Virus record (IMG/VR): IMGVR_UViG_3300032320_002249 | Location: 1 to 64,000 of that record | Source: a virus | Lineage: Duplodnaviria > Caudoviricetes | DNA length: 64,000 nt | Reading direction: 5' to 3' (one strand) | Shown here: one piece after another, positions 2,933 to 32,455 of the stretch | Numbering within the stretch: position 1 is the stretch's first letter | How the letters are laid out: every line of letters starts with the position of its first letter | Made by a program: the position numbers and the translations under genes | The notes under the pieces: generated by a model | Told to the model about the DNA's origin: nothing | Seen by the model: only the letters and a program-made list of their open reading frames with translations | Database searches by the model: none

Positions 2933-3041
2933 GTGGACGATTAAAAAACTGGCCCATCTGTTCTTCAATTAGAACGGGTGGGCCTTATAATGTTTGGGCC
3001 GATCTCTATTTGTTCGGTGAAAATTTATTTTATTGATGATT

Positions 3042-3635
3042 ATGATTACCGCTTCTCAAGTAAAAAATCTTCGTGAAAAAACAGGCGCTGGTATGATGCA
3101 GTGCAAAGAGGCATTGACAGCAACTTCTGGCAATGAAGCAGAAGCTCTTATCTGGCTTCGTCAGAAGGGAATTGCTATTGCTGATGGAAAAGTTGGTCGC
3201 CCTACGACTGAAGGCACAATTGGATCTTATATTCACACTGGCGGACGTATTGGTGTGATGGTTGAGATTCTTTGTGAAACTGATTTTGTCGCACGTTCTG
3301 ATGAATTCCAAGAACTTGTAAGGAATATTGGTATGCAAATTGCTGCATGTCCCACTGTCGCATATGTTTCTATTGACCAAGTACCTGATAGTGTAGTTGA
3401 GGTCGAAACAAATATCGAAATGGGTAAGAACGATCTTTCAAATAAACCAGAAAATATTAGGGCTAAAATTGTAGAAGGTCGAATTGCCAAAAGGCTTAAA
3501 GAATTCTGTCTTATGGATCAAAACTACATTAAAGATGGTTCCGTCACTGTACAAGACTATATCAAAATGACCGCAGGAAAATTTGGCGAAAACATCAACG
3601 TCAAGAAATTCGTTCGCTTTAATCTTGGCGAATGA
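3042..3635 (+). CDS. tsf: Translation elongation factor Ts (short cyanobacterial-type)
   Basis: [44 protein letters not shown]-equivalent QIAA, GENIxVxxFVRF; about 197 aa. Confidence 0.95.
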
Positions 3636-3699: not shown

Positions 3700-3753
3700 A
3701 GGAACGTCAACAAGTTGAAACAGCAACTTTCTAAATCAACTAGGAGCTTAATT

Positions 3754-16078: not shown

Positions 16079-17154
16079 ATGGGATGCTGGTTTAAAACTT
16101 GCGGGCTCACTCAGATGCACATTTATGGTGGAGAACCTGTTTATGTTTTTCTGCTAAAAAAACCAAAATATAAAAATGTTTCTTACTCCAATTTTCTTTA
16201 TGATCCTTTGCTGTTTCCTTTTGATAGTATCTATGATGAATATGGCGGTGGGAAACAAAGTACAGGAATTGCGTTTGAACTAATTATCAAACATCTTAAA
16301 GAATGTCTTGTTGAAATGCCTTTGGGGGAAAACGAATACCATGATATTGAGGTAAAGAGAGATGCCTTTGATGAGGATCTTTTCTTTAATTCAATAAAAG
16401 AAGATAGGCTGTTCATAAACACAAAACATGATGAAAATATTCCAGTAAATTTCGTCATGATGAAAAAAATGCAGTAGACAAAATTCTTGAAGATTATGTC
16501 ATTGATGATTACAGACAAAAAGTTAAATATGCGGATATTATCAATGACCTAGATTCTTATATTGAAACTAAGTTACAATGTATTCAACAAAGTAATGGTT
16601 ATTTTTATGATCCGTTTATTGAAAATAATCTAGTATATGATTATTTTGATGGTATTATGTATTCTATTTCACTTTTTAGCTCTTTTGATCCAATTGATTT
16701 TCGCAATCTTGTGCGAACATATCTGACAGAAGGAAAAATTGAAGAAGCAAAAGAAATCATGAAGCGAGTTATCATGGGGGTTGTAATTAATATTTTTATG
16801 GATAGTATTAGAAAATGCTGGCATCCTGGTGGATTTGAAGGTAGTCAGAGTTCAGACTTGAATTCTTATAAACTTCTCATTGATACTATGAATGAAAACA
16901 TGGTCATTGAAGAGTATGAATGTGAGAAAATGTCAGAAGAAGAAGTATTCAAATTGGCAGAAAATCCTAACACTTCCCAAAGAATTTTAGATGAACTTGC
17001 TGATGACACTAGCCCTACTATTCGTGGAGCGGTTGCATGGCATAACAATACTTCCCAGGAAACTCTTAGGAGGCTTTCTGATGATGTAGATTCATACGTT
17101 AGAAATTATACAAAAGCAAACCCTAACTTTTTGAAAGGAGAATCTTCTACATGA
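16079..17154 (+). pseudogene. Phage hypothetical protein fused to C-terminal LRV repeats, split by a frameshift at an A7 run
   Basis: The -1 frame is open from 16468 into the ATG at 16657; one extra A at 16463-16469 joins the two ORFs. Confidence 0.7.
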
Positions 17155-17498
17155 ATTACTTTGAAATTTCTAAACAAGCCTTAGACCCAACTACTCCGGC
17201 AGATGTTCTTTCTGCCATCTCTAATCATGGGGAATGGACTATTCGTGAAAAAGTTGCATGTAATCCAAATGCACCACCAGAAACCTTGATGATTCTTTCT
17301 AATGAGGATTGGATTATTCGCGGAGTCGTTGTGCGTAATCCAAATGCACCACACGAAATTCTTAAAAATCTCGCTGGTGATGATGTTTGGTATGTTCGGG
17401 CTTACGTTAGTCGCAGGCCAAATATCACAGAAGAATTAATTATTCTTTCTAAGGCCGCCTCATTGATTCAAAATCTGGAAAAATGGACGGTTCATTAA
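17151..17498 (+). CDS. LRV/HEAT-like repeat protein
   Basis: NPNAPxExL..L..D..W.VR repeats; TEELIILSKA cap. Confidence 0.85.
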   Translation: MNYFEISKQALDPTTPADVLSAISNHGEWTIREKVACNPNAPPETLMILSNEDWIIRGVVVRNPNAPHEILKNLAGDDVWYVRAYVSRRPNITEELIILSKAASLIQNLEKWTVH

Positions 17499-17573
17499 GT
17501 GGCACAGCAACCCACACCCACTCTCAAAGCCCTGTTAAATTAAGAGAGTCCAAAACACACCACAACTTTTATT

Positions 17574-17834
17574 ATGACCACCGCTATTGAGACCCTGCCC
17601 ATCCATGACCCCAGTGCTGAAGTGCCGATTCCTGGTCCCGGTGCTGCCGCTCCAACCGCTCCCGCTATTCGTGGACGCAAACCCGCTCGCACTGTGCGAG
17701 ATTATCAGGGCTGGAAGATTTCTCCTGGAGATAACAACCTTTGGGACATTTCAAACGAGTCTGATACGTTTTCTGGTTATGCTACTATTAATGACGCCCA
17801 AAGGGCAGTGCGAGCCAAAAAGCGGGCCACATGA
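17574..17834 (+). CDS. Hypothetical protein, Pro/Ala-rich N-terminus
   Basis: Own promoter module at 17484-17541 and terminator at 17843-17868. Confidence 0.65.
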   Translation: MTTAIETLPIHDPSAEVPIPGPGAAAPTAPAIRGRKPARTVRDYQGWKISPGDNNLWDISNESDTFSGYATINDAQRAVRAKKRAT

Positions 17835-17842
17835 ATCAGCCG

Positions 17843-17868
17843 AAAGCCATCTTAATGATGGCTTTTTT
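17843..17868 (+). terminator. Intrinsic terminator
   Basis: AAAGCCATC-ttaat-GATGGCTTT followed by a T run. Confidence 0.7.
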
Positions 17869-17891
17869 AATTACCAATTTTTCTAATACTT

Positions 17892-18236
17892 ATGAACTTG
17901 TGTCTCGATCAAAAATTAGAATTAGTACAAAATCCCAATACTTCTCCAGAAGTACTTGAGGAACTTTCTAGGGATGAGTATTATAGTGTTCGTTATCGTG
18001 TTGCAAGCCACCCCAATACACCACCAGATGTTCTTATGGAATTTGCTGGTGGTAAATTTGCACTTCATCGTTTCCCTGTTGCATTAAACCCAAACGCGCC
18101 AGTGGAAATCCTTATGAATCTTGCTATTGATGATGATTGGTACGTTCGTCGAAATGTCATGAGAAACCCTAATGCAACAGAAGACATTATTATGCTAGCA
18201 AAGGCAACTGATTTTATTCTTGTTGGTCATTGGTGA
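17892..18236 (+). CDS. LRV/HEAT-like repeat protein
   Basis: Three 26-aa repeats plus NPNATEDIIMLAKATDFI cap. Confidence 0.88.
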   Translation: MNLCLDQKLELVQNPNTSPEVLEELSRDEYYSVRYRVASHPNTPPDVLMEFAGGKFALHRFPVALNPNAPVEILMNLAIDDDWYVRRNVMRNPNATEDIIMLAKATDFILVGHW

Positions 18237-18269
18237 AGCTGTAAAGGATCGATATTATTGTTAATACTT

Positions 18270-18689
18270 ATGAACTTGAGTCTGAATGAAAAATTAGAAT
18301 TAGCAGACGATCACAATACTGCTCCAGAAGTTCTTAGAGAACTTTCTGGGGATACATCTACTAATATTCGTTGTCTTGTTGCATCTAACAGAAACACCCC
18401 AGTTGATGTATTTACAGTTCTTGTAGATGATAATGATTTGGTTCGTTATCATATCGCAAGGAACCCTTGTGCTCCAAAAGAGGTTCTTAGCAAACTTGCT
18501 GAGAATAAAGATATTATAGTTCGTCGTGTTGTTTCAAGTAATAAAAATACCTCATTAGATAGTTTGATGAGATTAGCTAATGATTCTGATATTTTTGTTG
18601 TCTGTCTTGCTGAAAGAAACCCAAATGCAACAGAAGATGTTATTATGTTGGCCAAAGCCACTTCTTTTATTTTAAGTTTTAAAACCTGA
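18270..18689 (+). CDS. LRV/HEAT-like repeat protein
   Basis: Same start context (taatacttATGaacttg) as 17892; cap ATEDVIMLAKATSFI. Confidence 0.88.
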   Translation: MNLSLNEKLELADDHNTAPEVLRELSGDTSTNIRCLVASNRNTPVDVFTVLVDDNDLVRYHIARNPCAPKEVLSKLAENKDIIVRRVVSSNKNTSLDSLMRLANDSDIFVVCLAERNPNATEDVIMLAKATSFILSFKT

Positions 18690-18690
18690 T

Positions 18691-19395
18691 ATGTCCACTA
18701 GAAAAATTTACTACGTTGATTGCTATGAAAACTTGTATGGAGATTATCTTCTCCATAGAGAAAGAGATTTTTTTAGTGATGATTTCATTTATACTAAATG
18801 TCCTGTTTTTAACCACAAAACGAATAGAACCTTCGTGGGTTGCTCTCCTATTGATTTCAAGTTAGAATATAATCCACTTACAAATGCAATTGCATCAGAT
18901 AACAATGACATATTAATTTTTGATCAGGAACACTTGAGTTCTCAGCTTCCAGTAGTTCAATTAAAAGTTCCATCCCTGTTATTCTTCACTGAAGAAGAAA
19001 ATGTATGGTTTGAGTACAGAGATCATCCATTGACTGCCTTGAATAATAATTTCATTGGGGTAGGAGGATGGTTCAATCTTTCAACCTGGCCAAGAAATTC
19101 TATCAATGCCTTCACTATTGTTGATGTAAACAAACCAGTCATAATTGAAAAAGATGATCCTCTTTTTAGGGTATCATTTTACACCCAGAACTTTGATGAT
19201 GGCATTATTTTAGAAAAAATAAAAGATCCCACAGAAACAAGTAGGATTTTAAAAGAATATTTTGAGTATAGAGAAACAAACGCTTCTAATGTTGTAAAAA
19301 ACATTTTAGATTCTAAGAACACTACATTTAGTTGGAAGAAAGCCTTATTTTCTTCTATTGGAATCAATAAATGTCCTTTTAAGTTTTTTCATTGA
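18691..19395 (+). CDS. Cyanophage-type hypothetical protein
   Basis: CP at the N-terminus, GWFNLSTWPR, C-terminal KCPF. Confidence 0.7.
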   Translation: MSTRKIYYVDCYENLYGDYLLHRERDFFSDDFIYTKCPVFNHKTNRTFVGCSPIDFKLEYNPLTNAIASDNNDILIFDQEHLSSQLPVVQLKVPSLLFFTEEENVWFEYRDHPLTALNNNFIGVGGWFNLSTWPRNSINAFTIVDVNKPVIIEKDDPLFRVSFYTQNFDDGIILEKIKDPTETSRILKEYFEYRETNASNVVKNILDSKNTTFSWKKALFSSIGINKCPFKFFH

Positions 19396-19479
19396 CTGTG
19401 CCAGCTCAATAAGTGGCACACCTTAACCGGACAACCCATTTCCTTTGCTGTATTATAAAGAGGTCCAAACGAAATTACT

Positions 19480-20346
19480 ATGGCTGTTACTTCCCCCGTT
19501 CAATTTACAAAAGATTTTGAGAAGGATTTTTCTAGTATCATCAAGTACGTTTCAGGGTACAAAGAAAGTCAAAACAAAGATTTTTTCAATAAGCCTTATT
19601 TCAAGACTTATTTCAAATCTAAGAATATTTCTGAAGTCGTTCCATTTTTTGAGATCGTTAATTTTATCAACAATTACCTCGTCCTGAGTAAGGTTTGGGA
19701 AGACGTTGATATTAATCATTATCAAACATATCACCGCATCATGGAGCTGTTTTCGTTCCGTTATATGGATAATGAGGCATCTAGGGAGTGGCTTACTAAG
19801 GAGATCAGTTCTAAGACCTTCTTCAACATGATCGTTCAGGCATACAAAAAAACCAGCTATTCTCAAACTGATCAATATTTTAGGGACACTTTTAGCCAGC
19901 TGCAAAAGCTGTATAAAAAGAACGCAACAATCACTCGTCCTAAGCGTTGGCGACTTCTAGATTTTCATGATCATGTTTCTTTCCTTTTCCTGGAAAGCAC
20001 GATTGATAACAAAGATCATGATAACGAGTTTCTTCCAAGCCCAGTGACTACTAATGATGGTTGGAATATTCGTCAACCTAAGGATACCCTTGAGCTTGCC
20101 CTTTGGGGTAAGAAAGTTCACAACTGCGTTCTTTCCTATGAAGATGCTATCGAAAAGAAGCAGAGTGCCATCATTCTCATCGAACAAAATGAGGCACCTA
20201 AATTCACCGTGGAACTTGACTATGAAAAACTGAAGAAAAAGAAGATTCATATCAAGCAAGTGGTTGGTATGAGCAACAGTTCACTTTCTTCAGAAGAACG
20301 CAATCAGTGTGACAGCATTCTCACTAATATTCTGATCAAAGCCTGA
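19480..20346 (+). CDS. PcfJ-like domain protein (second paralog)
   Basis: QPKDTLELALWGKKVHNCVxxY...FTVEL...QVVG; own promoter module at 19397-19455. Confidence 0.7.
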   Translation: MAVTSPVQFTKDFEKDFSSIIKYVSGYKESQNKDFFNKPYFKTYFKSKNISEVVPFFEIVNFINNYLVLSKVWEDVDINHYQTYHRIMELFSFRYMDNEASREWLTKEISSKTFFNMIVQAYKKTSYSQTDQYFRDTFSQLQKLYKKNATITRPKRWRLLDFHDHVSFLFLESTIDNKDHDNEFLPSPVTTNDGWNIRQPKDTLELALWGKKVHNCVLSYEDAIEKKQSAIILIEQNEAPKFTVELDYEKLKKKKIHIKQVVGMSNSSLSSEERNQCDSILTNILIKA

Positions 20347-20351
20347 GTAAC

Positions 20352-20375
20352 AAAGCCTCCTTTCTGGAGGCTTTT
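20352..20375 (+). terminator. Intrinsic terminator
   Basis: AAAGCCTCC-tttct-GGAGGCTTT-T. Confidence 0.7.
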
Positions 20376-20399
20376 ACTTTCTCTATAATATGGTATCAC

Positions 20400-20855
20400 A
20401 TGAACCACGATTATAACAAAAAGCTTGAAATAGCCTCAGACCCAAATACATCACCAAAAATCCTCAGGCAACTTGCTTGCGATGATGACCCCTACATTCG
20501 CTATCTAGCTGTAAGGAACCCCAATACACCCGTCGATGTTCTTATTGAACTTTCTAATGATGATGATAGATGGGTTCGGATTGAAATTGCACGAAAAATC
20601 AATGTACCTCTCGATATTCTAAAAAAACTCTCTAGTGATAGTGATGTGTCTGTTCGGGATACTCTTGCTACAAATCCAAACATAACTGCTGAGATTCTTA
20701 TGATTCTTGCAAAGGGTGGGGATTATTGGGTTCTAAAAAGTGTTATAAAACACTCAAGAGCTACAGAAGAGGTTATTGTTTTAGTAAAGGCTATTGAATT
20801 TATTAAAGGATGGTCTGTTTGGAACTATTGTAAAAATGAATTGGAATTATTTTGA
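20400..20855 (+). CDS. LRV/HEAT-like repeat protein
   Basis: Four repeats; cap ATEEVIVLVKAIEFI. Confidence 0.88.
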   Translation: MNHDYNKKLEIASDPNTSPKILRQLACDDDPYIRYLAVRNPNTPVDVLIELSNDDDRWVRIEIARKINVPLDILKKLSSDSDVSVRDTLATNPNITAEILMILAKGGDYWVLKSVIKHSRATEEVIVLVKAIEFIKGWSVWNYCKNELELF

Positions 20856-21114
20856 CAAAAAAATTGAATTAGCAAGAAGTTTAGATACCCCAGCAAGAGT
20901 TCTTATTAAACTTTCTAAGGATTCTGAATCCTTGGTTCGTACTTATGTTGCAGACAATCCAAATACACCTTTAGAAGCTCTTAGGATTCTTGCTACAGAT
21001 TCTCTTCCATCTATTCGCTACTGGGTTGGAAGAAACCCAAATGCAACAGAAGAAATTATTATGCTAGTAAATGCCACTAATTTTATTTCAGGGTTAAAAA
21101 ACGGTATCAAATGA
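20836..21114 (+). CDS. LRV/HEAT-like repeat protein
   Basis: Start trimmed to MNWNYFDKKIELA; cap ATEEIIMLVNATNFI. Confidence 0.85.
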   Translation: MNWNYFDKKIELARSLDTPARVLIKLSKDSESLVRTYVADNPNTPLEALRILATDSLPSIRYWVGRNPNATEEIIMLVNATNFISGLKNGIK

Positions 21115-21461
21115 ACCCAATTTTTCTAAGCAAAAAAATTAGATTAGCAAAAAGTTTAGATACACCTGTAGAGGTTCTTATTGAACTTGCTGGTGATGAA
21201 TGTGCATGGGTTCGGTACTGGGTTGCACTAAACAATAATGCACCTATGGATGTTCTAAAAAAACTTTTTAGTGATAATAATGTATCCGTTCGGGATGCCA
21301 TTGCTTCAAATCCCAATATAACACCCGAGATTCTTATGATTCTTGCAAAGGATGGGGATTATTTGACTCGCCTTAATGTTATGCATCATCCGAAAGCTAC
21401 AGAAGAGATTATTGTTTTAGTAAAGGCTATTAATTTTATTAAAGAAATGCGCCAATTCTAA
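21111..21461 (+). CDS. LRV/HEAT-like repeat protein
   Basis: ATGA overlap; cap ATEEIIVLVKAINFI. Confidence 0.88.
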   Translation: MNPIFLSKKIRLAKSLDTPVEVLIELAGDECAWVRYWVALNNNAPMDVLKKLFSDNNVSVRDAIASNPNITPEILMILAKDGDYLTRLNVMHHPKATEEIIVLVKAINFIKEMRQF

Positions 21462-21535
21462 AAGTGGCACAGGGGCTTTGTGGTGCCCATGAAACGGTGC
21501 TATGATTAAGAGGTAGTCAAACCTTTCTATTACTC

Positions 21536-21832
21536 ATGCCTCTCACAATCGATGCTCCTAATGTTGTCGATAAATCATCTGAAGTTGTTAAAAAGCCAGC
21601 ACCTCGTTATCGGGTTCTGCTTCATAATGATGATCACAATTTTCCAGAATATGTTGCTCTTTGTTTGATGGAAGTTGCCCAACTGAGCGAGCAAGAAGCT
21701 ATCCATGTTATGTTTACTGCTCATACTACTGGAGTTGGTCTTGTTAAGATCTGCGACATTGAGCCAGCAGAATTTTATTGTGAGGGTCTTAAATCCAAGG
21801 GTCTCACAAGCACAATCGAACCTGAAGAGTGA
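21536..21832 (+). CDS. clpS: ATP-dependent Clp protease adaptor ClpS (cyanobacterial-type)
   Basis: YRVLLHNDDxN, AHxxG, ExAEFYCEGLKSKGLTSTIEPEE. Confidence 0.92.
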   Translation: MPLTIDAPNVVDKSSEVVKKPAPRYRVLLHNDDHNFPEYVALCLMEVAQLSEQEAIHVMFTAHTTGVGLVKICDIEPAEFYCEGLKSKGLTSTIEPEE

Positions 21833-21837
21833 GTATT

Positions 21838-22023
21838 ATGGAACTTACCACTAGTCAGAAATTTGAAATTGCGAAGTTCAACATGATTATCGACCAATGC
21901 GATGACATTGAAAAACTGAGAGAAATTTCAAAGCAATTGCTGACTGCCTGGATGACCCAGCGAGCTGCAACTCAACATTCAATTAAAAGTACCTTAGCTA
22001 CTTACAAATCTTTTGGAGAATAA
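21838..22023 (+). CDS. NblA-like small helical protein
   Basis: LTTSQKFE resembles the NblA L(S/T)xEQxF motif; about 60 aa, two predicted helices; divergent. Confidence 0.5.
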   Translation: MELTTSQKFEIAKFNMIIDQCDDIEKLREISKQLLTAWMTQRAATQHSIKSTLATYKSFGE

Positions 22024-22031
22024 AGTTTCTA

Positions 22032-22421
22032 ATGAATGTTCTTCAGAATTACAAGAACACTAAAAATCGAACTGTGCAAGAATTTTTAGATCTTTGTTCA
22101 GTTTGTACAGATCCCAACACCTCTTCTAAAATTCTTACCACTCTCGCAGAGGATGTAGATTTTAATATTCGTTCTAAGGTAGCAGCTCATGCTAACACTC
22201 CTACTAGTGTTCTTAGGGAACTTGCTTATGATTATGCAGAAGTTGTTTGTTACTCTGTAGCTTGTAATCCTAACACTCCACAAGAGGCTCTTTATTTACT
22301 TTCATCCCATTCAAATTTTTGGATTCGTGGTGCCGTGGTAAACAACCCAAATGCAACAGAAGAGATTATTATGCTAGCAAAGGCAACTGGATTTATTGAG
22401 AATAGATTTCAATTTACCTAA
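22032..22421 (+). CDS. LRV/HEAT-like repeat protein
   Basis: Repeats plus cap ATEEIIMLAKATGFI. Confidence 0.88.
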   Translation: MNVLQNYKNTKNRTVQEFLDLCSVCTDPNTSSKILTTLAEDVDFNIRSKVAAHANTPTSVLRELAYDYAEVVCYSVACNPNTPQEALYLLSSHSNFWIRGAVVNNPNATEEIIMLAKATGFIENRFQFT

Positions 22422-22450
22422 TTCTTTAGAAAACTTTACCTCTGCAACTC

Positions 22451-22942
22451 ATGAATCCTTTTCACGACAAAGAGTACAAAATTGCATACCTCAAGGCCCG
22501 TGCTTATGACAGTCGTACAGAAGTTCGTTTGCAGGTTGCAAAAAATAAACTCACTCCACCCGAATTTCTTACCTTCCTTGCTGGGGATCAAGATGGATAT
22601 GTTCGTATGGAGGTTGCGAGAAATCCAAATGCACCAGCAGAAGCTCTTATGATTCTTATTTTTTCTAAAAATAGCATGGGTTCGATTTATTGGAGAGTTG
22701 CAAAACATCCCAATGCCACTCCACAAATATTATCTATATTGTCCGATTATGATGGACCTGTTGTTCACGGTGTTGTTGCAAGCAATCCAAATACACCAGC
22801 AGAAGTTCTTATGAAACTTGCTGGGAACCGTGTCTCATTGGTTCGTACTCATGTTATAAACAACACAAATGCAACAGAAGAGATTATTATGACGGCAAAA
22901 GGAACCTCATTTATTATTAAAAATGGACTATACAACTCTTAA
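22451..22942 (+). CDS. LRV/HEAT-like repeat protein
   Basis: Repeats plus cap ATEEIIMTAKGTSFI. Confidence 0.88.
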   Translation: MNPFHDKEYKIAYLKARAYDSRTEVRLQVAKNKLTPPEFLTFLAGDQDGYVRMEVARNPNAPAEALMILIFSKNSMGSIYWRVAKHPNATPQILSILSDYDGPVVHGVVASNPNTPAEVLMKLAGNRVSLVRTHVINNTNATEEIIMTAKGTSFIIKNGLYNS

Positions 22943-23267
22943 AGAAAAAATAAAATTAGCTGGAAACCCTAGTACACCAAAAGAAATACTCAAGATACTT
23001 TCTTTGCATCAATCTTGGTTTGTTCGTTCTGCAGTTGCAGGTAATCCCAATACAGACCCAGAGGTACTTAAGGTACTATCTGGTGATATTGATTTGGATG
23101 TTCTCTGTAAAGTTGCTAGCAATCCTAGCACACCGCTAGATGTTCTTATGAAATTTGCAATGTATAGATCCCCCTGGATGAGGGATAGTGTTATAGAGAA
23201 CCCCAAAGCTACAGAAGAACTTATCATTCTAGCAAAGGCCACAGAATTTATTCTAAGAAACCACTAG
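22923..23267 (+). CDS. LRV/HEAT-like repeat protein
   Basis: Repeats plus cap ATEELIILAKATEFI. Confidence 0.88.
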   Translation: MDYTTLKEKIKLAGNPSTPKEILKILSLHQSWFVRSAVAGNPNTDPEVLKVLSGDIDLDVLCKVASNPSTPLDVLMKFAMYRSPWMRDSVIENPKATEELIILAKATEFILRNH

Positions 23268-23276
23268 CATTTTAAA

Positions 23277-23462
23277 ATGAATCACGGTTCCATTCAAAAA
23301 ATCAGGGCAGCACGAAACCCGTACACACCACAAGAAAAACTTGTAGAACTCGCTGGGGATGATTTTTGGCTTGTTCGTTTTTGGGTTTTAGAAAACCCAT
23401 CAGCCCCGGATGATGCTATCATATTGGCAAAGGCTATCGATTTTGTTTCTCGTCATCTATGA
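23277..23462 (+). CDS. LRV/HEAT-like single-repeat protein
   Basis: One repeat plus cap APDDAIILAKAIDFV. Confidence 0.8.
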   Translation: MNHGSIQKIRAARNPYTPQEKLVELAGDDFWLVRFWVLENPSAPDDAIILAKAIDFVSRHL

Positions 23463-23872
23463 ATCACTCTAAAAAAATAGAGGCAGCCAAGGATCCTAAC
23501 ACTCCGCCAAGGACTCTTAAAAAACTTTCTAATGATAAATCTTTAGAGGTTAGGCTTGCCGTTATCCAAAATCCAAATACTCCATGTGATATTCTCATAA
23601 AATTAGCTCAAACTCATCACCCTAGCATTCGATTACATCTTGTAAGAAGGCCCACCCTACCCAAGCAGGTTTTTAAGATTCTTTATACGAGTGAATGTTC
23701 ATTCATTCGTGAATATGTTGCAAAGCATCCCAACGCGCCGGCTGATGTTCTTATTAGCCTTGCTGGCGATGAAAACGGGGATGTTCGTCGGTGGGTTTTG
23801 AAAAACCCAAATGCGCCTGAGGATGCTATCGTGCTAGCCAAGGCTATTAATTTTGTGTGGTGTATGACATAG
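23459..23872 (+). CDS. LRV/HEAT-like repeat protein
   Basis: Repeats plus cap APEDAIVLAKAINFV. Confidence 0.88.
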   Translation: MNHSKKIEAAKDPNTPPRTLKKLSNDKSLEVRLAVIQNPNTPCDILIKLAQTHHPSIRLHLVRRPTLPKQVFKILYTSECSFIREYVAKHPNAPADVLISLAGDENGDVRRWVLKNPNAPEDAIVLAKAINFVWCMT

Positions 23873-23989
23873 ATTAATAATAATATAGAGGTATCTTTCT
23901 AAACAGAAGGACACCTCATTAAGTGGCACATTGCCTTTGCCGCCTGTCGGTTTATTCTAGTATAATAAGGGTAACCTGCATTTTTAGTC

Positions 23990-24292
23990 TTGACCATGAG
24001 TAAAAATCCTTTAATTATTATGGCCAAGGATCCAAATACACCACCAGAGGTTCTTAGAGATCTTTCTAAGATATTTGAGTATATTATTAGAGGATTTGTA
24101 GCACAAAACCCAAGCACACCCACCGATGTTCTTAAAAAACTTGCAGAAGATGATCTTAGTCATGTCCGTTATTGTATCATGAGAAATTCAAATGCAACAG
24201 AAGACATTATTATGCTAGCAAAAGCAGTTACATTTATTCGGGAACACCAAGTTTCATTTATTCTGAATCAGAGGAGAAAAAAATGCAATTGA
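23990..24292 (+). CDS. LRV/HEAT-like repeat protein
   Basis: After a promoter module at 23908-23966; cap ATEDIIMLAKAVTFI. Confidence 0.85.
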   Translation: MTMSKNPLIIMAKDPNTPPEVLRDLSKIFEYIIRGFVAQNPSTPTDVLKKLAEDDLSHVRYCIMRNSNATEDIIMLAKAVTFIREHQVSFILNQRRKKCN

Positions 24293-24555
24293 GTGGTTAC
24301 GATAAAATTCAAATCGCACAAAAGCCAAGCACCTCACAAGAAACACTTGCAATTCTTGCTTGTGATGATGACCCTGATGTTCGCTATTTTGTAGCAAAAG
24401 ATCCAAATACACCCCAAGATGTTCTCTTAAGACTTTCTACAGATAATGATTGGATGGTCCGTTATTGTATCATGAGAAATTCAAATGCAACAGAAGACAT
24501 TATTATGCTAGCAAAAGCAACTGATTTTATTGTTAATGAGATGTGGAAATCATGA
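24283..24555 (+). CDS. LRV/HEAT-like repeat protein
   Basis: GAGGAG RBS before the ATG at 24283; cap ATEDIIMLAKATDFI. Confidence 0.85.
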   Translation: MQLSGYDKIQIAQKPSTSQETLAILACDDDPDVRYFVAKDPNTPQDVLLRLSTDNDWMVRYCIMRNSNATEDIIMLAKATDFIVNEMWKS

Positions 24556-24935
24556 ACCGGGCAGAAAAAGAAAGGTTGGCAGCATGGAAGGCTGCCAAAT
24601 ACACTACATCATCAAAGGTTCTTAGGGAACTATCTAAACATGAATGTGAGGAAGTTCGTGCTAATGTTGCATTCAATCCTAATACACCACAGGATATACT
24701 TACAGAACTTTCTAAAGACATTGACCTTCGTATTCTTTATTGGTTAGCCCGTAATACTAAAACTACATCAGAGTTACTTATGAAAATTGCTAGTAAGGCA
24801 CCACCCTGTAGTAGTATTTCTTCGGCTATTTTACACAATCCAAATGCAACAGAAGACATTATTATGCTAGTAAGGGCAACTGATTTTATTGTTAACAGTT
24901 ATTATGAGAGTAAAGGTCACCGAATTTATTCTTAA
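24552..24935 (+). CDS. LRV/HEAT-like repeat protein
   Basis: ATGA overlap; cap ATEDIIMLVRATDFI. Confidence 0.85.
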   Translation: MNRAEKERLAAWKAAKYTTSSKVLRELSKHECEEVRANVAFNPNTPQDILTELSKDIDLRILYWLARNTKTTSELLMKIASKAPPCSSISSAILHNPNATEDIIMLVRATDFIVNSYYESKGHRIYS

Positions 24936-24937
24936 CC

Positions 24938-25358
24938 ATGAATTATACCAAAAAAAATAAGACTAGCTAACAATCCAAATACATCACCTGAGATGTTATC
25001 ACGTCTCTCTAAGGATCATAATCTTTGGGTTCGTTGTCATATTGCAAGGAATCCCAATACACCAACAAATGATCTCATAAAACTTACCAGGGATACCTCT
25101 CCCACAGTTCGACTGTGCCTTGCACATAGGGCCAATTTAACAACTGAGATTCTTTGTATTCTTAGTAAAGATTTTTCCTGGGACGTTAGAAGGGCAGTAT
25201 CCTTTAATCCTAATACACCATTAGATATTCTTATGGAACTTGCTAGAGATAGTAGTAGTCTAGTTCGTGGCAAGGTTATAAACAATCCCAAGGCCCCGGA
25301 AGATGCTATCATACTAGCCAGGGCCATTAATTTTATTATATCTATGAGGTTCTTATGA
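24938..25358 (+). CDS. LRV/HEAT-like repeat protein, N-terminus out of frame at an A8 run
   Basis: Removing one A at 24950-24957 yields MNYTKKIRLANNPNTSPEML...; cap APEDAIILARAINFI. Confidence 0.75.
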
Positions 25359-25795
25359 GCTACTATGATGAGAAATTTATTCAAAGGGTGATGCTAGCTA
25401 GGAATCCAAATACATCGCCTGATGTGTTATTAAGTCTTTCTAGAGATATTACCATTCATATTCGATGTGATGTTGTAACTAATCCTTCTGTCACAACGGA
25501 AATCCTAGAAATCCTTAGTAAGGATACTTCTTGGCTTGTTCGGGCTGTAGTCGCCAATACCACCAAAACACCTCCAGGCATTCTTAGGAAACTTGCTGGA
25601 GATGCAGCTGAGCGTGTAAGGTGTATGGTTGCCTCTAATCCTAGTACCCCACCTGATGTTATTATGACCCTTGCTGGGGATGGGGATTGGTGGGTAAGGA
25701 ATGGTGTCATATTGAACCCCAAGGCCACAGAGGATGTTATAATGTTAACCAGGGCCATTGGTTTTATTGGATCTATTAAAAACATTACACCATGA
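25355..25795 (+). CDS. LRV/HEAT-like repeat protein
   Basis: Four repeats plus cap ATEDVIMLTRAIGFI. Confidence 0.88.
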   Translation: MSYYDEKFIQRVMLARNPNTSPDVLLSLSRDITIHIRCDVVTNPSVTTEILEILSKDTSWLVRAVVANTTKTPPGILRKLAGDAAERVRCMVASNPSTPPDVIMTLAGDGDWWVRNGVILNPKATEDVIMLTRAIGFIGSIKNITP

Positions 25796-26292
25796 ATTAT
25801 CTTGACAAATATAAAATTGCTGGTGATCCAAATACCTCACCCGAGACCTTATCAATTCTTGCTAGGGATGATAATTCTAGTGTTCGTTATAAGGTAGCAG
25901 GTAATCCTAATTGTCCACCAAAAATCCTAGAAATTCTTAGTGAGGATCTCGATAATTCGGTTCGGACAAGGGTTGCATTTAACAAGAATACACCCCAGAA
26001 AATTCTGGAAATTCTTAGTAAGGAGAGTGATTACTGGATTCTAAGAACAGTAGCACAAAATCCCAATAATTCCTTGGACACCCTTAGGAAACTTTCTAGG
26101 TCAAATTATAGATGGATCAGATCTTTAGTTGCCTCTAATCCTAGTACCCCACCTGATGTTCTTATGACCCTTGCTGGGGATGAGGATGAACTGGTTCGTC
26201 GTTGGATCGGACGCAACCCAAGTGCCCCGGAGGATGCTATCATACTGGTCAGGGCCATTAGTTTCATGGAGGACCTAATGTATGGATTATAG
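25792..26292 (+). CDS. LRV/HEAT-like repeat protein
   Basis: Five 26-aa repeats plus cap APEDAIILVRAISFM. Confidence 0.88.
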   Translation: MNYLDKYKIAGDPNTSPETLSILARDDNSSVRYKVAGNPNCPPKILEILSEDLDNSVRTRVAFNKNTPQKILEILSKESDYWILRTVAQNPNNSLDTLRKLSRSNYRWIRSLVASNPSTPPDVLMTLAGDEDELVRRWIGRNPSAPEDAIILVRAISFMEDLMYGL

Positions 26293-26773
26293 TTATTTGT
26301 TAGATCTCGCTAAGGATCCCAGAACCTCACCAGAGGTTCTATTAAATCTTGCTCATTCGGTATATTGGGTTGTCAGGAAATATGTTGCAGATAACCCAAA
26401 ATGTCCCCCCGAGGCCCTATCAATTCTTGCTGGGGATGAGAATGTTAGTGTTCGCAGTTCCGTGGCATATAATACCAGAACCCCACTAGAGGACCTTAGG
26501 AGGCTTGCAAAGGATGGTCGCTCGGCGGTTAGGCTAGAAGTAGCCAATAACACCAAAACCCCTCCAGAGGCCCTTAGGGAGCTTGCTGGGGATTTCTATG
26601 AGTCTGTCAAAAATTATGTTGCCCAAAACCCCAATACTCCACCGGATGTTCTTATGGAATTTGCTGGTGGTAAATCTACATTTCATCGTAGGGCAATTGT
26701 AAGAAACCCAAATGCCACGGAGGATGCTATCATGTTAGCAAAGGCCCTTGATTTTATTCAATATTATGGATAG
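26282..26773 (+). CDS. LRV/HEAT-like repeat protein
   Basis: Five repeats plus cap ATEDAIMLAKALDFI. Confidence 0.88.
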   Translation: MDYSYLLDLAKDPRTSPEVLLNLAHSVYWVVRKYVADNPKCPPEALSILAGDENVSVRSSVAYNTRTPLEDLRRLAKDGRSAVRLEVANNTKTPPEALRELAGDFYESVKNYVAQNPNTPPDVLMEFAGGKSTFHRRAIVRNPNATEDAIMLAKALDFIQYYG

Positions 26774-27179
26774 TGTAAAATTTGATCTCGCAAGGAATCC
26801 TAATACAACCCCAGAAACTCTTAGGGAGCTTGCTGGAGACAAGGAACCTTATGTTAGGGAATTAGTTGCAAATAACCCAAATTGTCCCCCAGAGGTCCTA
26901 TCAATTCTTGCTGGTGATAAAGATTATCATGTGAGATATAATGTCGCTAGGAATATTAATACTCCTCCAGATTCTCTTAGGGAGCTTGCTTGTGATAAAG
27001 ATGTTTCTGTCAGGAATTATGTTGCCCAAAACCCCAATACTCCACCGGATGTTCTTATGGAGCTTGCTGGTGATAAATTTCCTCTTGTAAGATATGAAGT
27101 TCGGCACAATCCAAAGTCCCCGGAGGATGCTATCATGTTATCAATGGCCCTTGATTTTGTTCTTTATGAATTATCTTGA
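26766..27179 (+). CDS. LRV/HEAT-like repeat protein
   Basis: Four repeats plus cap SPEDAIMLSMALDFV. Confidence 0.88.
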   Translation: MDSVKFDLARNPNTTPETLRELAGDKEPYVRELVANNPNCPPEVLSILAGDKDYHVRYNVARNINTPPDSLRELACDKDVSVRNYVAQNPNTPPDVLMELAGDKFPLVRYEVRHNPKSPEDAIMLSMALDFVLYELS

Positions 27180-27422
27180 AAAATGATTTTGGCAAACAGT
27201 CCAGATACTCTACCAGAAACTCTAGGCATCCTTTCTATGGATTCTGATTCTGTTATTCGTCATTTGGTTGCACTAAATCCTTCTACTCCACCTGAGGCTC
27301 TTAGAGAACTTGCTTCTGATCTTCTTTCTCAGGTTCGTGATGGGGTTCTATACAATCCTAATGTTACCGAAGAAATTATACTTTTATCTAAGGGAATCGC
27401 ATTCATTTTAAAAAATAAATAG
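27166..27422 (+). CDS. LRV/HEAT-like repeat protein, possible N-terminal frameshift at an A5 run
   Basis: One extra A gives MNYLEKMILA, like paralog MNYLDKYKIA; in-frame ATG at 27183 otherwise; cap VTEEIILLSKGIAFI. Confidence 0.75.
27415..27421 (+). promoter_or_regulatory. T4-type late promoter
   Basis: ATAAATA 26 nt upstream of the 27447 ATG. Confidence 0.55.
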
Positions 27423-27446: not shown

Positions 27447-29132
27447 ATGGTTACTTATTCAGAGTTTATACAAATTGCAGAGAGATATTATCAACCAGAT
27501 GAACCTCTACAATCAGGAAAAACCCCATATGGTAAGGCAGTTTCTTCTACCTATAGACAGAAAGGAGAATTCAAAAGATCCTCTCCAGATAAGAAAACCC
27601 CGGATGCAGAGTCTCGTATTGAAAGGCAACGTCGTAACACTTACTCAAAAGTAAAACACGGGGCAGATAATCCTAATTTTAATTTAACCCCTGATTCTAA
27701 TTATGATGTGAAAGGAAAAGGAGGCGATAATCTAGAAGTGACAGATACTAAACGTGGATATTCAATGCAATTATCTAGGTTAAATTCTACTGTTATGGGT
27801 AAGCCCGAATATGATGTTACATGGACCAACAAAAATAGAAGAAGAGATGGAGCTAATCCTGGAAAATCCAGAAGGGTAGTTAGGGATATTACTCGTATGT
27901 GGAAGCAACAGGTGTCGCCTCGTCTTCCTTATAATTCTGTATTATCAAACTATCCCCAATTTAATGATACAAGTGACAGAAATACAAGAGCTAAGTTTTA
28001 TTCAAAGTATGCTGGATTCGGTGATATGGCTGACTTTGATAGTGCCCAATATGCAAAGGTAGAAAGAGAACCCTCATCCCGCCAAGCCGCAAAAGGAGTA
28101 TTACGAACTAAACCTATAGATGCCCGTGCTGCAGAAGATAGTATAGTGGATCTTAGTAGTAAGATTCGCGCAAGATTAGATGCTACAAGACAGCATAAGC
28201 CAATTCCACGCCAAACAGAACCCCGTAAAATTGCACCTGCCAAACCATCGAGACCATCTATTATTTCACCTCCAATTAGATCATCAGTTCAACGTTTTAG
28301 ACCAATAACACCAAAACTTCGTGGAAGACTTGCCCTGGCTGGAGCTGCCCTTACTGGTGCCGGGGCCTTGTATGATTTAATGAGGTCTAAAAGAAAAAAG
28401 CCATTCGGTGAAAGTGTAGTATTGAGAGCCCTTAGATCTGCTAGAAATATTAGAAGATTATCTTCCTTGCTACCTGGACCTAGATCTACTGGTTATAAAA
28501 AACAACTTACAGTAGGTCCAAGTAAAAGTATTGTAGGTCTAGAACGCCAAAGAAAAGATAGTTCAACTAGGGCCGCATTTCGTAGGGCTGGAATGAATAG
28601 ATCTCAGGAAGGTGGTAATAGAATAAGATTTAATTCTACAGATGAAAAGAATAAATTCTCTAAAACCGCTATATCTTCATATCCATCCCAATCCTCGTAT
28701 GCCCTAGATATGATTCCTGATAAAGTAAAGGAAAGAATGTATGGTAATGGAGTGAGATCAACTCAAGAAAGATCCTTATATTTAAGAAGATTAAGAAGAC
28801 AACTTGGAGGAAGTCGTACTAGAAGAGGTGTTCATAATGTAGATATTTTACCTAGGGGTAGTTATATGAAAAATGATCCAAAAGAGTTAGTTAGTAGGGG
28901 AAAGGAGTACAATAGGGTTGTTAGGGAACTACCCCAGGAAGTGAAAAATGTAGGTGGAAATAGGGGGGATAAGATTGTAGGAAAGGCATCTGAGGTCATG
29001 ATTGGAGCAACTGATACTGAGAAAGGAAGAAGAAAAAGAAGGGATTTATATTCAAGAGCACTCGGAGCAAGTTCCTGGGATCCAATTACAAGAGTTCAGG
29101 TTGCTAGTATAAGAGAAGAATTGATGTATTAA
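27447..29132 (+). CDS. Basic putative head-internal protein with a capsid-targeting sequence
   Basis: N-terminus MVTYSEFIQIAE resembles the T4 IP CTS MKTYQEFIAE; Arg/Lys-rich; late promoter upstream. Confidence 0.6.
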   Translation: MVTYSEFIQIAERYYQPDEPLQSGKTPYGKAVSSTYRQKGEFKRSSPDKKTPDAESRIERQRRNTYSKVKHGADNPNFNLTPDSNYDVKGKGGDNLEVTDTKRGYSMQLSRLNSTVMGKPEYDVTWTNKNRRRDGANPGKSRRVVRDITRMWKQQVSPRLPYNSVLSNYPQFNDTSDRNTRAKFYSKYAGFGDMADFDSAQYAKVEREPSSRQAAKGVLRTKPIDARAAEDSIVDLSSKIRARLDATRQHKPIPRQTEPRKIAPAKPSRPSIISPPIRSSVQRFRPITPKLRGRLALAGAALTGAGALYDLMRSKRKKPFGESVVLRALRSARNIRRLSSLLPGPRSTGYKKQLTVGPSKSIVGLERQRKDSSTRAAFRRAGMNRSQEGGNRIRFNSTDEKNKFSKTAISSYPSQSSYALDMIPDKVKERMYGNGVRSTQERSLYLRRLRRQLGGSRTRRGVHNVDILPRGSYMKNDPKELVSRGKEYNRVVRELPQEVKNVGGNRGDKIVGKASEVMIGATDTEKGRRKRRDLYSRALGASSWDPITRVQVASIREELMY

Positions 29133-29204
29133 AAAATGTATTAAAAAATATAATGCTGTGTTTTTGTTAGGACGTTAAATGATAAAAAAATCTTATGTGA
29201 ATAG

Positions 29205-29480
29205 ACTTATAATGATCTTATAAACATACCTATAATAGCCTTATAATGTCTAAATGATCTTATAAACATAGCCTTATAATAGCCTTATAATTCCCTTATA
29301 AACATACCCTTATAATAGCCTTATAATGCCTAAATGATCTTATAAACATATAAACATACCTATAATAGCCTTATAATATCCTTATAAACATAGCCTTATA
29401 ATAGCCTTATAATAGCCTTATAATTCCCTTATAAACATACCCTTATAATGTCCTTATAATGCCTAAATGATCTTATAAAC
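29205..29480. repeat. Degenerate tandem repeat of (C)TTATAA-centred 11-13 nt units
   Basis: 22 TATAA cores counted in about 275 bp; no ORF. Confidence 0.9.
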
Positions 29481-31954: not shown

Positions 31955-32455
31955 ATGGCTACCAACTACCGCAGGCTGTCCGTTGATCTTCTGAACTGGC
32001 TTGCAGCCGCCCCTGAGGGGGATCGGCGGGCCTATCGGATCACTTCAGAGTTCGCCATTCGTCATCCCAACTTCTTTGGCGAATTCATCAAGAACGATAA
32101 TTACCTCGACTTCCTCCATTCTATGTTGAGGAGTAATTCTCTCTGTGAGGGTAATACCATTGCTATTCGCCTGGTCAAGAAGCACCGGAAAGAGATGGTG
32201 ATTATCTATAAGGATCTCATCAAGAATACCCAGGTTCTCATCAAGAATACCCAGGCTCCTCCTACTCACCGGCATTTGAACTGGCTTTGGTCAGACCTTA
32301 TAAACACCGAACTTCATAAACTCATTGCAGAAGATACTGGCCGCCTCAATAAAATCCGTTATATTAAACGGGTCAGAGAATTGTCCGGCCTGGGACTGCG
32401 TGATGCTAAGGGCATTGTGGATCGCCTGTATGATACTGCTTTTAGGGGGGATTGA
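31955..32455 (+). CDS. Protein with a C-terminal ribosomal L7/L12 CTD-like segment
   Basis: KIRYIKRVRELSGLGLRDAKGIVD versus the L12 consensus KIxVIKxVRxxTGLGLKEAKxLVE. Confidence 0.7.
   Translation: MATNYRRLSVDLLNWLAAAPEGDRRAYRITSEFAIRHPNFFGEFIKNDNYLDFLHSMLRSNSLCEGNTIAIRLVKKHRKEMVIIYKDLIKNTQVLIKNTQAPPTHRHLNWLWSDLINTELHKLIAEDTGRLNKIRYIKRVRELSGLGLRDAKGIVDRLYDTAFRGD

What the first reader, a model, noticed from the sequence alone, without database searches (positions are those of the whole stretch)
21448..23872. ClpS and an NblA-like gene head an LRV operon: possible phage-directed protein degradation system
Seen: one promoter module (21448-21506) is followed by clpS, an NblA-like gene and five LRV genes with no obvious terminator between them. 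All standalone LRV proteins keep the same amphipathic C-terminal helix. Established: ClpS and NblA are substrate adaptors for ClpC/ClpP, NblA drives phycobilisome degradation, and NblB/CpcE/F are HEAT-repeat proteins. Inference: variable repeats select substrates and the constant cap recruits a shared partner such as a Clp component, analogous to poxvirus ankyrin/F-box proteins. An alternative is a phycobilisome-dismantling module. The NblA call is moderate only.
Basis: inference. Interest (0 to 1): 0.8.

Follow-up and report, generated by a model that had tools for sequence, protein, structure and literature searches.

The report
Cyanophage ClpS-NblA operon with capped binders
An uncultured T4-like cyanophage carries, in one tightly packed early gene block, its own copies of two adaptors of the host ClpC protease (ClpS and an NblA-like protein), and related phages keep clpS next to small proteins that share a C-terminal helix, which hints at, but does not prove, a phage system for directing host protein breakdown.

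Summary
A recurrent palindrome-plus-TATGAT module (21448-21506) precedes clpS, a 61-64 aa gene and five LRV genes. Gene gaps run from -20 to +29 nt, and no credible terminator occurs before the next module at 23921.

clpS is certain. It belongs to a virus-only clade in which the pocket 'gatekeeper' Met is replaced by Pro, Gly or Ala. That Met is present in 80 of 80 cyanobacterial ClpS.

The NblA call is upgraded. The gene belongs to a multi-copy small-protein family of picocyanobacteria and cyanophages that links to classical NblA by profile-profile comparison, fold and literature. Pfam NblA itself does not hit it.

The five LRV genes are part of a 21-gene array (16657-27422). Twenty of these end in the same helix, which is conserved at protein level.

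New result: in eight related phage lineages clpS always sits beside LRV or cap-bearing genes, often with stop/start overlap. In one 140-kb contig all such genes lie within about 2 kb of clpS, and some carry the cap without LRV repeats.

This supports a genetic ClpS-cap link. Binding and degradation remain untested: the complex predictor was not available.

The NblA-like gene accompanies clpS in only two lineages.

The parts
21448..21471 (.). 10-4-10 inverted repeat, a copy of a genome-wide operator-like palindrome. The TAA stop of the upstream LRV gene lies in its spacer.
   Evidence: 8 of 10 arm positions are complementary. The motif is over-represented: 28 matches against 9.35 expected.
21501..21506 (+). 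-10-like hexamer TATGAT, about 30 nt after the palindrome. It is a putative early promoter (inferred).
21536..21832 (+). clpS, 98 aa. It is a cyanobacterial-type ClpS of a virus-only clade. The pocket gatekeeper Met is replaced by Pro37.
   Evidence: Pfam ClpS 5.2e-17. PDB AtCLPS1 1.7e-13. Alignments A1 and A6. Tree. Gatekeeper counts.
21829..22023 (+). nblA-like gene, 61 aa from ATG 21838. It is probably 64 aa from GTG 21829, which overlaps the clpS stop as GTGA.
22032..22421 (+). LRV gene, 129 aa, ending in the cap.
   Evidence: Pfam LRV 2.2e-8. Cap shown in A3.
22451..22942 (+). LRV gene, 163 aa, ending in the cap.
   Evidence: Pfam LRV 2.5e-15. Cap.
22923..23267 (+). LRV gene, 114 aa, ending in the cap. 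It overlaps the previous gene by 20 nt.
   Evidence: Pfam LRV 1.5e-11. AlphaFold2 pLDDT 96.5, with the cap as helix 98-113. Foldseek best rows alphaRep and 1LRV, E about 0.1, not significant.
23277..23462 (+). Minimal LRV gene, 61 aa: one repeat plus the cap.
   Evidence: Pfam LRV 4.1e-7. Cap.
23459..23872 (+). LRV gene, 137 aa, ending in the cap. Its ATG overlaps the previous stop (ATGA).
   Evidence: Pfam LRV 6.5e-19. Cap.
23921..23966 (+). Next module: the right arm AAGTGGCAC, then TTGCCG-18-TATAAT. It marks the start of the following LRV transcription unit.
16657..27422 (+). The whole array of 21 LRV genes in which the clpS unit is embedded. Twenty of the genes carry the cap.

Best explanation
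This is an early host-takeover transcription unit of an uncultured T4-like cyanophage of picocyanobacteria. It reprogrammes the host ClpC-ClpP protease.

Two of its genes are cyanobacterial-type adaptors of ClpC.
- The ClpS keeps the alpha-amino-binding residues and the conserved C-terminal half. It has lost the pocket gatekeeper Met, so its N-degron range is probably altered or widened.
- The NblA is of the divergent picocyanobacterial type. It should direct phycobilisome and other proteins to ClpC.

The downstream LRV genes are phage-specific. They are small HEAT-like solenoids with a fixed framework, hypervariable surface positions and a constant C-terminal helix. Their genetic coupling to clpS across related phages suggests they work with ClpS. 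The most likely roles are target-selecting partners or modulators, comparable to the plant ClpF-ClpS1 binary adaptor.

Shown: gene identities, operon-like layout, the pocket change, the cap and its protein-level constraint, and the conserved clpS-cap linkage.

Inferred: promoter activity, ClpC docking, altered specificity, and any physical link between cap proteins and ClpS or ClpC.
For: ClpS:
- Pfam 61.8 bits.
- 63-69% identical to picocyanobacterial ClpS.
- The viral clade is monophyletic at 100/96 with a long stem.
- N31, D33 and H63 align with C. crescentus N47, D49 and H79.
- The gatekeeper is Met in 80 of 80 cyanobacterial genome loci and 107 of 109 other metagenomic hits. It is Pro in 10 and Gly in 1 of the 11 phage-clade proteins, Pro in L124, and Ala in L125-L129.

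NblA:
- 127 relatives.
- 2-5 copies per picocyanobacterial genome.
- All three listed Pfam NblA sub-threshold hits in those genomes fall on the same ORFs.
- 2 of 52 family members hit Pfam NblA, best 1.7e-6.
- hhalign against 15 classical NblA: 92%, E 5.7e-7.
- AlphaFold2 gives a helix-loop-helix with pLDDT 92.
- 1OJH and 2Q8V rank 8 and 12 of 48,161 chains (Z 5.6 and 5.5, aligned over 52 of 52 and 51 of 53 residues).
- PMC12695635 reports divergent, multi-copy picocyanobacterial NblAs.

Linkage:
- An LRV or cap gene lies within one gene of clpS in the window, L004, L006, L121, contig WYyZ27vL, L124, L125 and L126.
- The clpS stop overlaps the next start in the window, L004, WYyZ27vL, L125 and L126.
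- In the 140.6-kb contig G012, the only LRV gene matching Pfam LRV and all three small cap proteins lie at 117.4-118.9 kb around clpS.

Cap and repeats:
- 43% of identical cap residues use different codons, so the constraint acts on the protein.
- Hypervariable repeat positions are 10, 14, 16-19, 22-23 and 26.
- Five host genomes contain no capped LRV.
Against: - No binding or activity data exist.
- All eight lineages are related phages, so conserved neighbourhood is partly inherited.
- In the window and in G011 LRV genes are so numerous that adjacency alone means little.
- The cap differs between lineages: NPNATEEIIMLAKATxFI, NPNCPEYIKTYLVARDFI and NPNTPQYIKDLFKFKEYL. The ClpS C-terminal half is conserved, which argues against a conserved docking site on ClpS or ClpC.
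- Cross-lineage cap homology is not statistically significant: E 0.25 at best.
- AlphaFold2 packs the cap as the terminal helix of the solenoid.
- Pfam NblA does not hit the small gene even at E 10.
- A classical-NblA HMM gives E 2, and Foldseek finds nothing.
Confidence: 0.55

Rival explanations
1. Co-location without a functional link. clpS and nblA are host-like auxiliary genes dropped by cassette-type recombination at the promoter modules into a hyperplastic early region already filled with LRV genes. The cap is only the structural C-terminal capping helix of the solenoid. The LRV proteins do something unrelated, such as anti-defence decoys or other host-factor binders.
For: - The LRV array extends far beyond this unit, under at least three other modules.
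- Stops fall inside the palindrome spacer, a cassette-like architecture.
- The gene after clpS varies between lineages: nblA-like, LRV, PcfJ-like, or an unknown ORF.
- The cap is predicted as an integral terminal helix at pLDDT 94-98.
- The cap's polar residues differ between lineages.
- Designed alphaRep binders, the top structural match, also have constant caps.
Against: - In G012 the only LRV and cap genes in 140 kb flank clpS.
- In G013 and G014 six of the seven small cap proteins start at the clpS stop and run on within about 1.6 kb; the seventh, weakest match lies about 3.5 kb downstream.
- Stop/start overlaps with clpS occur in five lineages.
- The cap occurs on non-LRV proteins, where it cannot be a solenoid cap.
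Confidence: 0.3
2. Phage ClpS acts mainly as a blocker rather than a deliverer. By occupying the ClpC N-domain with an altered pocket, it shuts off host adaptor traffic and protects phage proteins from ClpCP. The cap proteins may be protected clients or are unrelated. This is not exclusive of the best explanation.
For: - ClpS is known to inhibit degradation of other ClpA substrates (established knowledge, recalled).
- The pocket is remodelled in every viral lineage, while the C-terminal half is conserved with the host.
- Host clpS is reported as induced during P-SSP7 infection of Prochlorococcus (PMC7885011).
Against: - The alpha-amino-binding residues N31, D33 and H63 are retained, which suggests substrates are still bound.
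- Co-encoding NblA, which needs active ClpC, argues against a general block.
Confidence: 0.15
3. Phycobilisome-dismantling module. The LRV proteins act like NblB or CpcE/F HEAT-repeat proteins on phycobiliproteins, working with NblA.
For: - An NblA-like gene lies in the same unit.
- The LRV fold is HEAT-like.
- Weak Pfam HEAT and HEAT_2 hits occur in some LRV proteins.
Against: - No hit to the phycobilisome-lyase HEAT-like family at E up to 1.
- The nblA-like gene is absent from six of eight clpS-LRV lineages.
- Twenty-one hypervariable paralogues are hard to reconcile with a handful of conserved phycobiliprotein targets.
- Five host genomes contain no capped LRV homologues.
Confidence: 0.05

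Closest known systems
Cyanobacterial and plastid ClpS1, N-recognin adaptor of ClpC (nearest solved structure: Arabidopsis CLPS1, PDB 7D34)
   Same: The full ClpS domain, the N/D/H alpha-amino-binding residues, an N-terminal extension of about 20 residues, and a C-terminal half nearly identical to host ClpS.
   Different: It is virus-encoded and belongs to a monophyletic viral clade on a long branch. The gatekeeper Met is replaced by Pro, Gly or Ala in every viral sequence. There is a one-residue deletion after the first helix.
Phage-encoded ClpS of jumbo phages (Iyer et al. 2021, PMC7824862)
   Same: A phage carries its own ClpS, presumed to feed targets to the host Clp unfoldase.
   Different: Those are distant sequences: only 3 GenBank phage records match, at 32-34% identity. 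They are not cyanobacterial-type. No LRV-type matches (A4 profile) lie around the other IMG/VR viral ClpS loci; the window's cap profile was also run on them and gave only two insignificant rows (E 0.21).
Cyanophage and picocyanobacterial NblA (Nadel et al. 2025, PMC12695635)
   Same: A small helix-loop-helix protein of about 60 aa. The family is multi-copy in picocyanobacteria and also occurs in cyanophages. It is divergent from the Pfam profile, exactly as the paper describes.
   Different: It is a host-like (picocyanobacterial) type in a T4-like phage, whereas the T7-like phage NblAs resemble classical ones. It is translationally coupled to clpS. Identity with the published picocyanobacterial NblA profile could not be checked directly.
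ClpF-ClpS1 binary adaptor of chloroplasts (recalled from Nishimura et al. 2015, not read here)
   Same: It is a precedent for a second protein that partners ClpS1 in selecting ClpC substrates.
   Different: There is no sequence relation. The partnership here is only inferred from gene linkage.
Poxvirus ankyrin/PRANC (F-box-like) receptor families, and designed alphaRep binders
   Same: A variable helical-repeat surface plus a constant C-terminal element, expanded as many paralogues in one viral genome. AlphaRep is the top structural match.
   Different: The repeat type and the C-terminal element differ. No partner of the cap is known. In alphaRep the cap is purely structural.

Membership tests
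ClpS (PF02617) | ClpS domain above the curated score | tested here: met
   61.8 bits against a cut-off of 23, E 5.2e-17. The genome search gives 4.2e-18.
ClpS (PF02617) | Residues that bind the substrate alpha-amino group (C. crescentus N47, D49, H79) | tested here: met
   N31, D33 and H63 align to them in the HMMER alignment with 3DNJ and 3G1B. N31 and H63 are invariant in A1 and A6. D33 is Asn, Pro or Glu in some sequences (viral P0004-P0007, L121 and L124; picocyanobacterial ClpS have Pro).
ClpS (PF02617) | Hydrophobic-pocket gatekeeper Met (C. crescentus M53, E. coli M40) | tested here: not met
   Pro37 in the window. In viral sequences the residue is Pro, Gly or Ala. It is Met in 80 of 80 cyanobacterial loci.
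ClpS (PF02617) | Docking on the ClpA/ClpC N-domain | not testable with these tools
Only conservation of the C-terminal half with host ClpS is seen.
NblA (PF04485) | Match to the Pfam NblA profile | tested here: not met
   No hit at E up to 1 or up to 10 in the genome search. A classical-NblA HMM gives E 2.
NblA (PF04485) | Remote homology to classical NblA through its own family | tested here: met
   hhalign of A2 against 15 classical NblA gives probability 92.3% and E 5.7e-7, confident over the N-terminal 26 columns. 2 of 52 family members hit PF04485, best 1.7e-6. All three listed sub-threshold Pfam hits in host genomes coincide with family members.
NblA (PF04485) | Helix-loop-helix of about 60 aa | tested here: met
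   AlphaFold2 pLDDT 92.3, with helices 5-20 and 24-60. 1OJH_A scores Z 5.6 and 2Q8V_A Z 5.5 over their whole chains, but tied with unrelated hairpins.
NblA (PF04485) | Dimer that binds phycobiliproteins and ClpC | not testable with these tools
LRV repeat proteins (PF01816, PF25591) | Tandem repeats of about 26 aa above the Pfam cut-off, forming an alpha/alpha solenoid | tested here: met
   All five genes exceed the cut-off. 61 repeat units share the framework NPNTP..L..LA.D....VR..VA. AlphaFold2 pLDDT 96.5. 1LRV ranks second in Foldseek (E 0.11, above the 0.001 significance line).
Phycobilisome-lyase HEAT proteins (NblB, CpcE/F; PF03130) | HEAT_PBS repeats | tested here: not met
   PF03130 is absent from all hit lists at E up to 1. 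Only generic HEAT and HEAT_2 hits below their cut-offs appear.
Viral receptor families with a constant recruitment module (ankyrin/PRANC type) | A constant C-terminal element that is portable between different N-terminal domains | tested here: inconclusive
   In L125 and L126, non-LRV proteins of 52-72 aa end in the same genome-specific motif as the LRV proteins there, for example AYEKFEHL against AYEKYGHL. The HMM support for the LRV caps is only E 0.25.
Viral receptor families with a constant recruitment module (ankyrin/PRANC type) | The constant element binds a component of the degradation machinery | not testable with these tools

The most novel reading that the evidence does not exclude
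The cap-bearing proteins, both LRV and non-LRV, form a phage-encoded family of interchangeable substrate receptors. They dock through their C-terminal helix on the phage's own remodelled ClpS, or on the ClpC N-domain. Chosen host proteins are thereby delivered to ClpC-ClpP. This would be a bacterial-virus counterpart of the F-box/PRANC receptor families, with cap and ClpS co-evolving within each phage lineage.
Probability: 0.17. Interest if true: 0.9.

Novelty: new variant of a known kind. Interest (0 to 1): 0.68.

Why it matters
- Cyanophage NblA was recently shown to speed infection and lower ocean light harvesting. Here a phage pairs an NblA-type gene with its own ClpS, the other adaptor of the same host unfoldase. 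The ClpS pocket is changed at the residue known to set N-degron specificity.
- No paper in the searched library reports a cyanophage-encoded ClpS.
- The conserved clpS-cap gene module gives a concrete, testable handle on how a phage might choose host proteins for destruction.
- The LRV array is a natural library of small, well-folded binders.
- If the cap proves to be a recruitment helix, it would be a new principle of targeted proteolysis in bacterial viruses.
- If not, the module still defines a new cyanophage auxiliary gene, clpS, and a new phage protein family.

Tried and rejected
- DNA search of GenBank phages with the locus: no match.
- tblastn of the NblA-like protein in GenBank phages: no match.
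- Word-indexed protein search for the NblA-like protein: only itself. The exhaustive search was needed.
- PDB sequence search for the NblA-like protein: nothing meaningful for the single sequence. With the family profile, 1OJH and 3CS5 reach only E 0.76-1.
- Foldseek on the NblA-like model: no match.
- L001 from the first locus scan was a short-motif false lead, a tail-fibre region with no ClpS.
- Scan of IMG/VR for the window-type cap: no relatives beyond the window's own record.
- The window-cap HMM finds nothing significant in other lineages.
- LRV114 has only one other relative in the word-indexed database.
- ThiF and JAB genes, seen near clpS in relatives, are absent from this 88.8-kb fragment.
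- 'relatives' mode is not available for a virus record.
- The A2 alignment was too diverse for a locus scan.
- The small cap proteins match no Pfam or informative PHROG family.
- A sigma-54 reading of TGGCAC was considered and dropped. The spacing to TTGC does not fit, and (from general knowledge, not tested here) cyanobacteria lack sigma-54.
Full report
**Context.** The window is the first 64 kb of an 88,850-bp IMG/VR virus record estimated at 41% complete. It encodes a T4-type baseplate wedge gp6 followed by a giant ORF of more than 3,200 aa. It also encodes DNA ligase, a CCA-adding-type nucleotidyltransferase and EF-Ts. Nearly all genes are on the + strand and G+C is 30-50%. Nearly identical DNA occurs in a few lake and aquatic metagenome assemblies.

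**Observation.**
- Positions 21448-21471 form a 10-4-10 inverted repeat with 8 of 10 arm positions complementary. TATGAT follows at 21501-21506.
- The right-arm word is strongly over-represented: 28 matches against 9.35 expected, reached by 0 of 100 shuffles.
- Fifteen exact copies are listed in the record; nearly all lie about 30 nt before a -10-like hexamer. Copies at 17497, 19411, 21462 and 23921 cut the LRV region into units.
- Between 21462 and 23921 lie clpS, the small gene and five LRV genes, with gaps of 5, 8, 29, -20, 9 and -4 nt. No convincing terminator occurs there.
- The description is therefore correct. However, the five LRV genes are a slice of a 21-gene array spanning 16657-27422.

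**ClpS.**
- The 98-aa product is an unambiguous ClpS.
- Its best cellular relatives are picocyanobacterial ClpS at 63-69% identity. The best solved relative is plastid CLPS1.
- Eleven metagenomic proteins at 64-100% identity form a clade with it (100/96 support, stem length 0.39). This clade is separate from both the picocyanobacterial and the other cyanobacterial ClpS groups. Their contigs are phage-like.
- IMG/VR adds four more distant viral loci at 59-62% identity.
- The alpha-amino-binding residues are kept. The C-terminal half is almost identical to host ClpS.
- The position aligned with C. crescentus Met53 differs. That residue is replaced by Ala in the mutant structures 3G1B and 3G3P. 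Here it is Pro in 10 and Gly in 1 of the 11 clade members, Pro in L124, and Ala in L125-L129. It is Met in 80 of 80 cyanobacterial genome loci and in 107 of 109 other top hits.
- From recalled literature, this Met restricts N-degron specificity. Its consistent loss suggests an altered substrate range. That step is an inference.

**NblA-like gene.**
- Pfam NblA does not match it, nor do PDB sequences.
- An exhaustive HMMER search found 127 relatives of 55-100 aa at 35-56% identity. Their consensus is LSLxQQFEIERFxRxID...LRxIAKQLLxAWxxQKAAT.
- Members are unnamed proteins of Synechococcus/Cyanobium-type genomes. One lies in another cyanophage-like contig beside MazG, dCMP deaminase and ribonucleotide reductase genes.
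- Five picocyanobacterial genomes hold 2-5 copies each. All three listed sub-threshold hits of Pfam NblA in those genomes fall on these same ORFs.
- Two of 52 members pass Pfam NblA at up to 1.7e-6.
- A profile-profile comparison with 15 classical NblAs taken from five other cyanobacteria gives 92% probability and E 5.7e-7. The confident part is the N-terminal helix.
- AlphaFold2 predicts a helix-loop-helix with pLDDT 92.
- NblA structures 1OJH and 2Q8V are among the 12 best of 48,161 chains and are aligned over their whole length, but they are tied with unrelated hairpins.
- This matches the published statement that picocyanobacterial NblAs are multi-copy, highly divergent and sub-significant against general profiles (PMC12695635).
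- I therefore accept the gene as NblA-like, with about 0.8 confidence.
- A GTG at 21829 overlaps the clpS stop (GTGA). It yields an N-terminus (MSIMELT...) that fits the family better.

**LRV genes and the cap.**
- Sixty-one repeat units share a fixed framework. Positions 10, 14, 16-19, 22-23 and 26 are hypervariable, with entropy above 3.1 bits.
- Twenty genes end in A[TP]E[ED]xI[IMV]Lx[KR]AxxF[IV]. The motif is found nowhere else in the record.
- 43% of identical cap residues use different codons. The conservation therefore acts on the protein, not on the DNA.
- The 114-aa member folds with pLDDT 96.5 into alternating short helices ending in a 16-residue cap helix.
- It most resembles designed alphaRep binders, 1LRV and PP2A HEAT repeats.
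- Five host genomes contain no capped LRV. GenBank phages contain essentially none.

**Neighbourhoods elsewhere.**
- L004 (ClpS 68% identical): LRV genes lie on both sides, and the next LRV start overlaps the clpS stop.
- Contig WYyZ27vL (83%): the same overlap with an LRV_2 gene.
- L006 (76%): seven LRV genes and an LRV-PcfJ fusion lie upstream.
- L121 (76%): a 68-aa LRV-like gene lies directly upstream of clpS. An NblA-like gene (E 2e-11) lies 0.8 kb upstream and a PcfJ-like gene downstream.
- L124, L125 and L126 (59-62%): an LRV gene ends 40-70 nt before clpS.
- In L125 and L126 clpS is followed, with ATGA overlap, by runs of 52-72-aa proteins without LRV repeats. These end in ...EExI(I/L)FSxAxAK(F/Y)QHL(I/V). 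The LRV proteins of the same contigs carry the same local variant (AYEKYGHL, ANRKYGHL).
- In the 140.6-kb contig G012, the only LRV gene matching Pfam LRV and all three small cap proteins lie within 117.4-118.9 kb, around clpS at 117.78-118.07 kb. Two weaker LRV-like ORFs extend the cluster to about 119.5 kb.
- In G013 and G014 six of the seven small cap proteins lie within about 1.6 kb downstream of clpS; the seventh, weakest match lies about 3.5 kb downstream.
- G011 instead has about 80 LRV repeat matches spread over 80 kb.
- More distant viral ClpS loci (27-49% identity, including L128/L129) gave no LRV-type match with the A4 profile; the window's cap profile gave only two insignificant rows there (E 0.21).
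- The NblA-like gene is near clpS only in the window lineage and in L121.

**Reading.**
- The clpS-cap gene pair looks like the conserved core. LRV expansion and nblA acquisition look lineage-specific.
- This raises the odds that cap proteins work with ClpS. I put any functional tie at about 0.55-0.6.
- What the evidence does not show is how. The cap varies between lineages and could be structural in LRV proteins. Cross-lineage cap homology rests on position and within-genome similarity, not on significant scores.
- I put the specific receptor model, in which the cap docks on ClpS or ClpC, at about 0.17.

**Known context.** Phage ClpS has been noted in jumbo phages (PMC7824862). Host clpS is reported as induced in P-SSP7-infected Prochlorococcus (PMC7885011). 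Searches found no paper describing a cyanophage clpS or phage LRV arrays.

Noticed in passing
window 3033-3635: A full-length EF-Ts gene in the phage (Pfam EF_TS, E 4.1e-34). At 31955-32455 a 166-aa protein carries a ribosomal L7/L12 C-terminal-like piece (E 3.1e-6). These are translation-factor-like auxiliary genes.
   Followed up: partly
window 10570-43057 (15 exact copies listed): A genome-wide palindrome, GTGCCAGCT-N4-AAGTGGCAC type, lies about 30 nt upstream of -10-like hexamers. Upstream gene stops often fall in its spacer, for example TAA at 21459-21461. It looks like an operator for a dimeric regulator and possibly a cassette junction.
   Followed up: partly
window 19480-20346 and 6296-7981; L006:3918-5198; L121:3278-4135: PcfJ-like proteins recur near clpS. 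One lies 1.2 kb upstream in the window and one directly downstream in L121. In L006 the PcfJ-like domain is fused to three LRV repeats in a 426-aa protein.
   Followed up: partly
L004:17647-20294 and contig WYyZ27vL: Relatives of this phage encode ThiF (E1-like) and Prok-JAB proteins a few kb from clpS, a second protein-modification or proteolysis theme. Neither is found in the 88.8-kb record of the window.
   Followed up: partly
window 29188-29480: A dense tandem array of CTTATAAT/CCTTATAAAC-type units, giving many overlapping -10-like hexamers, lies just after the LRV array and the 561-aa ORF (27447-29132, no Pfam or PHROG match).
   Followed up: no
window 20352-20374: The only strong intrinsic-terminator-like hairpin in the region (9-bp stem with 5 G-C pairs, then a T-rich tail) sits right after the PcfJ-like gene, inside what otherwise looks like one unit.
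   Followed up: no
L124 record (G011, 125 kb): This related phage has about 80 LRV repeat matches in dozens of genes spread over 18-100 kb. The LRV expansion is far larger than in the window.
   Followed up: no
window 3715-5271: A 518-aa protein with DUF2828 and DUF7788 domains (E 1e-39 to 3e-43) lies in the early region.
   Followed up: no
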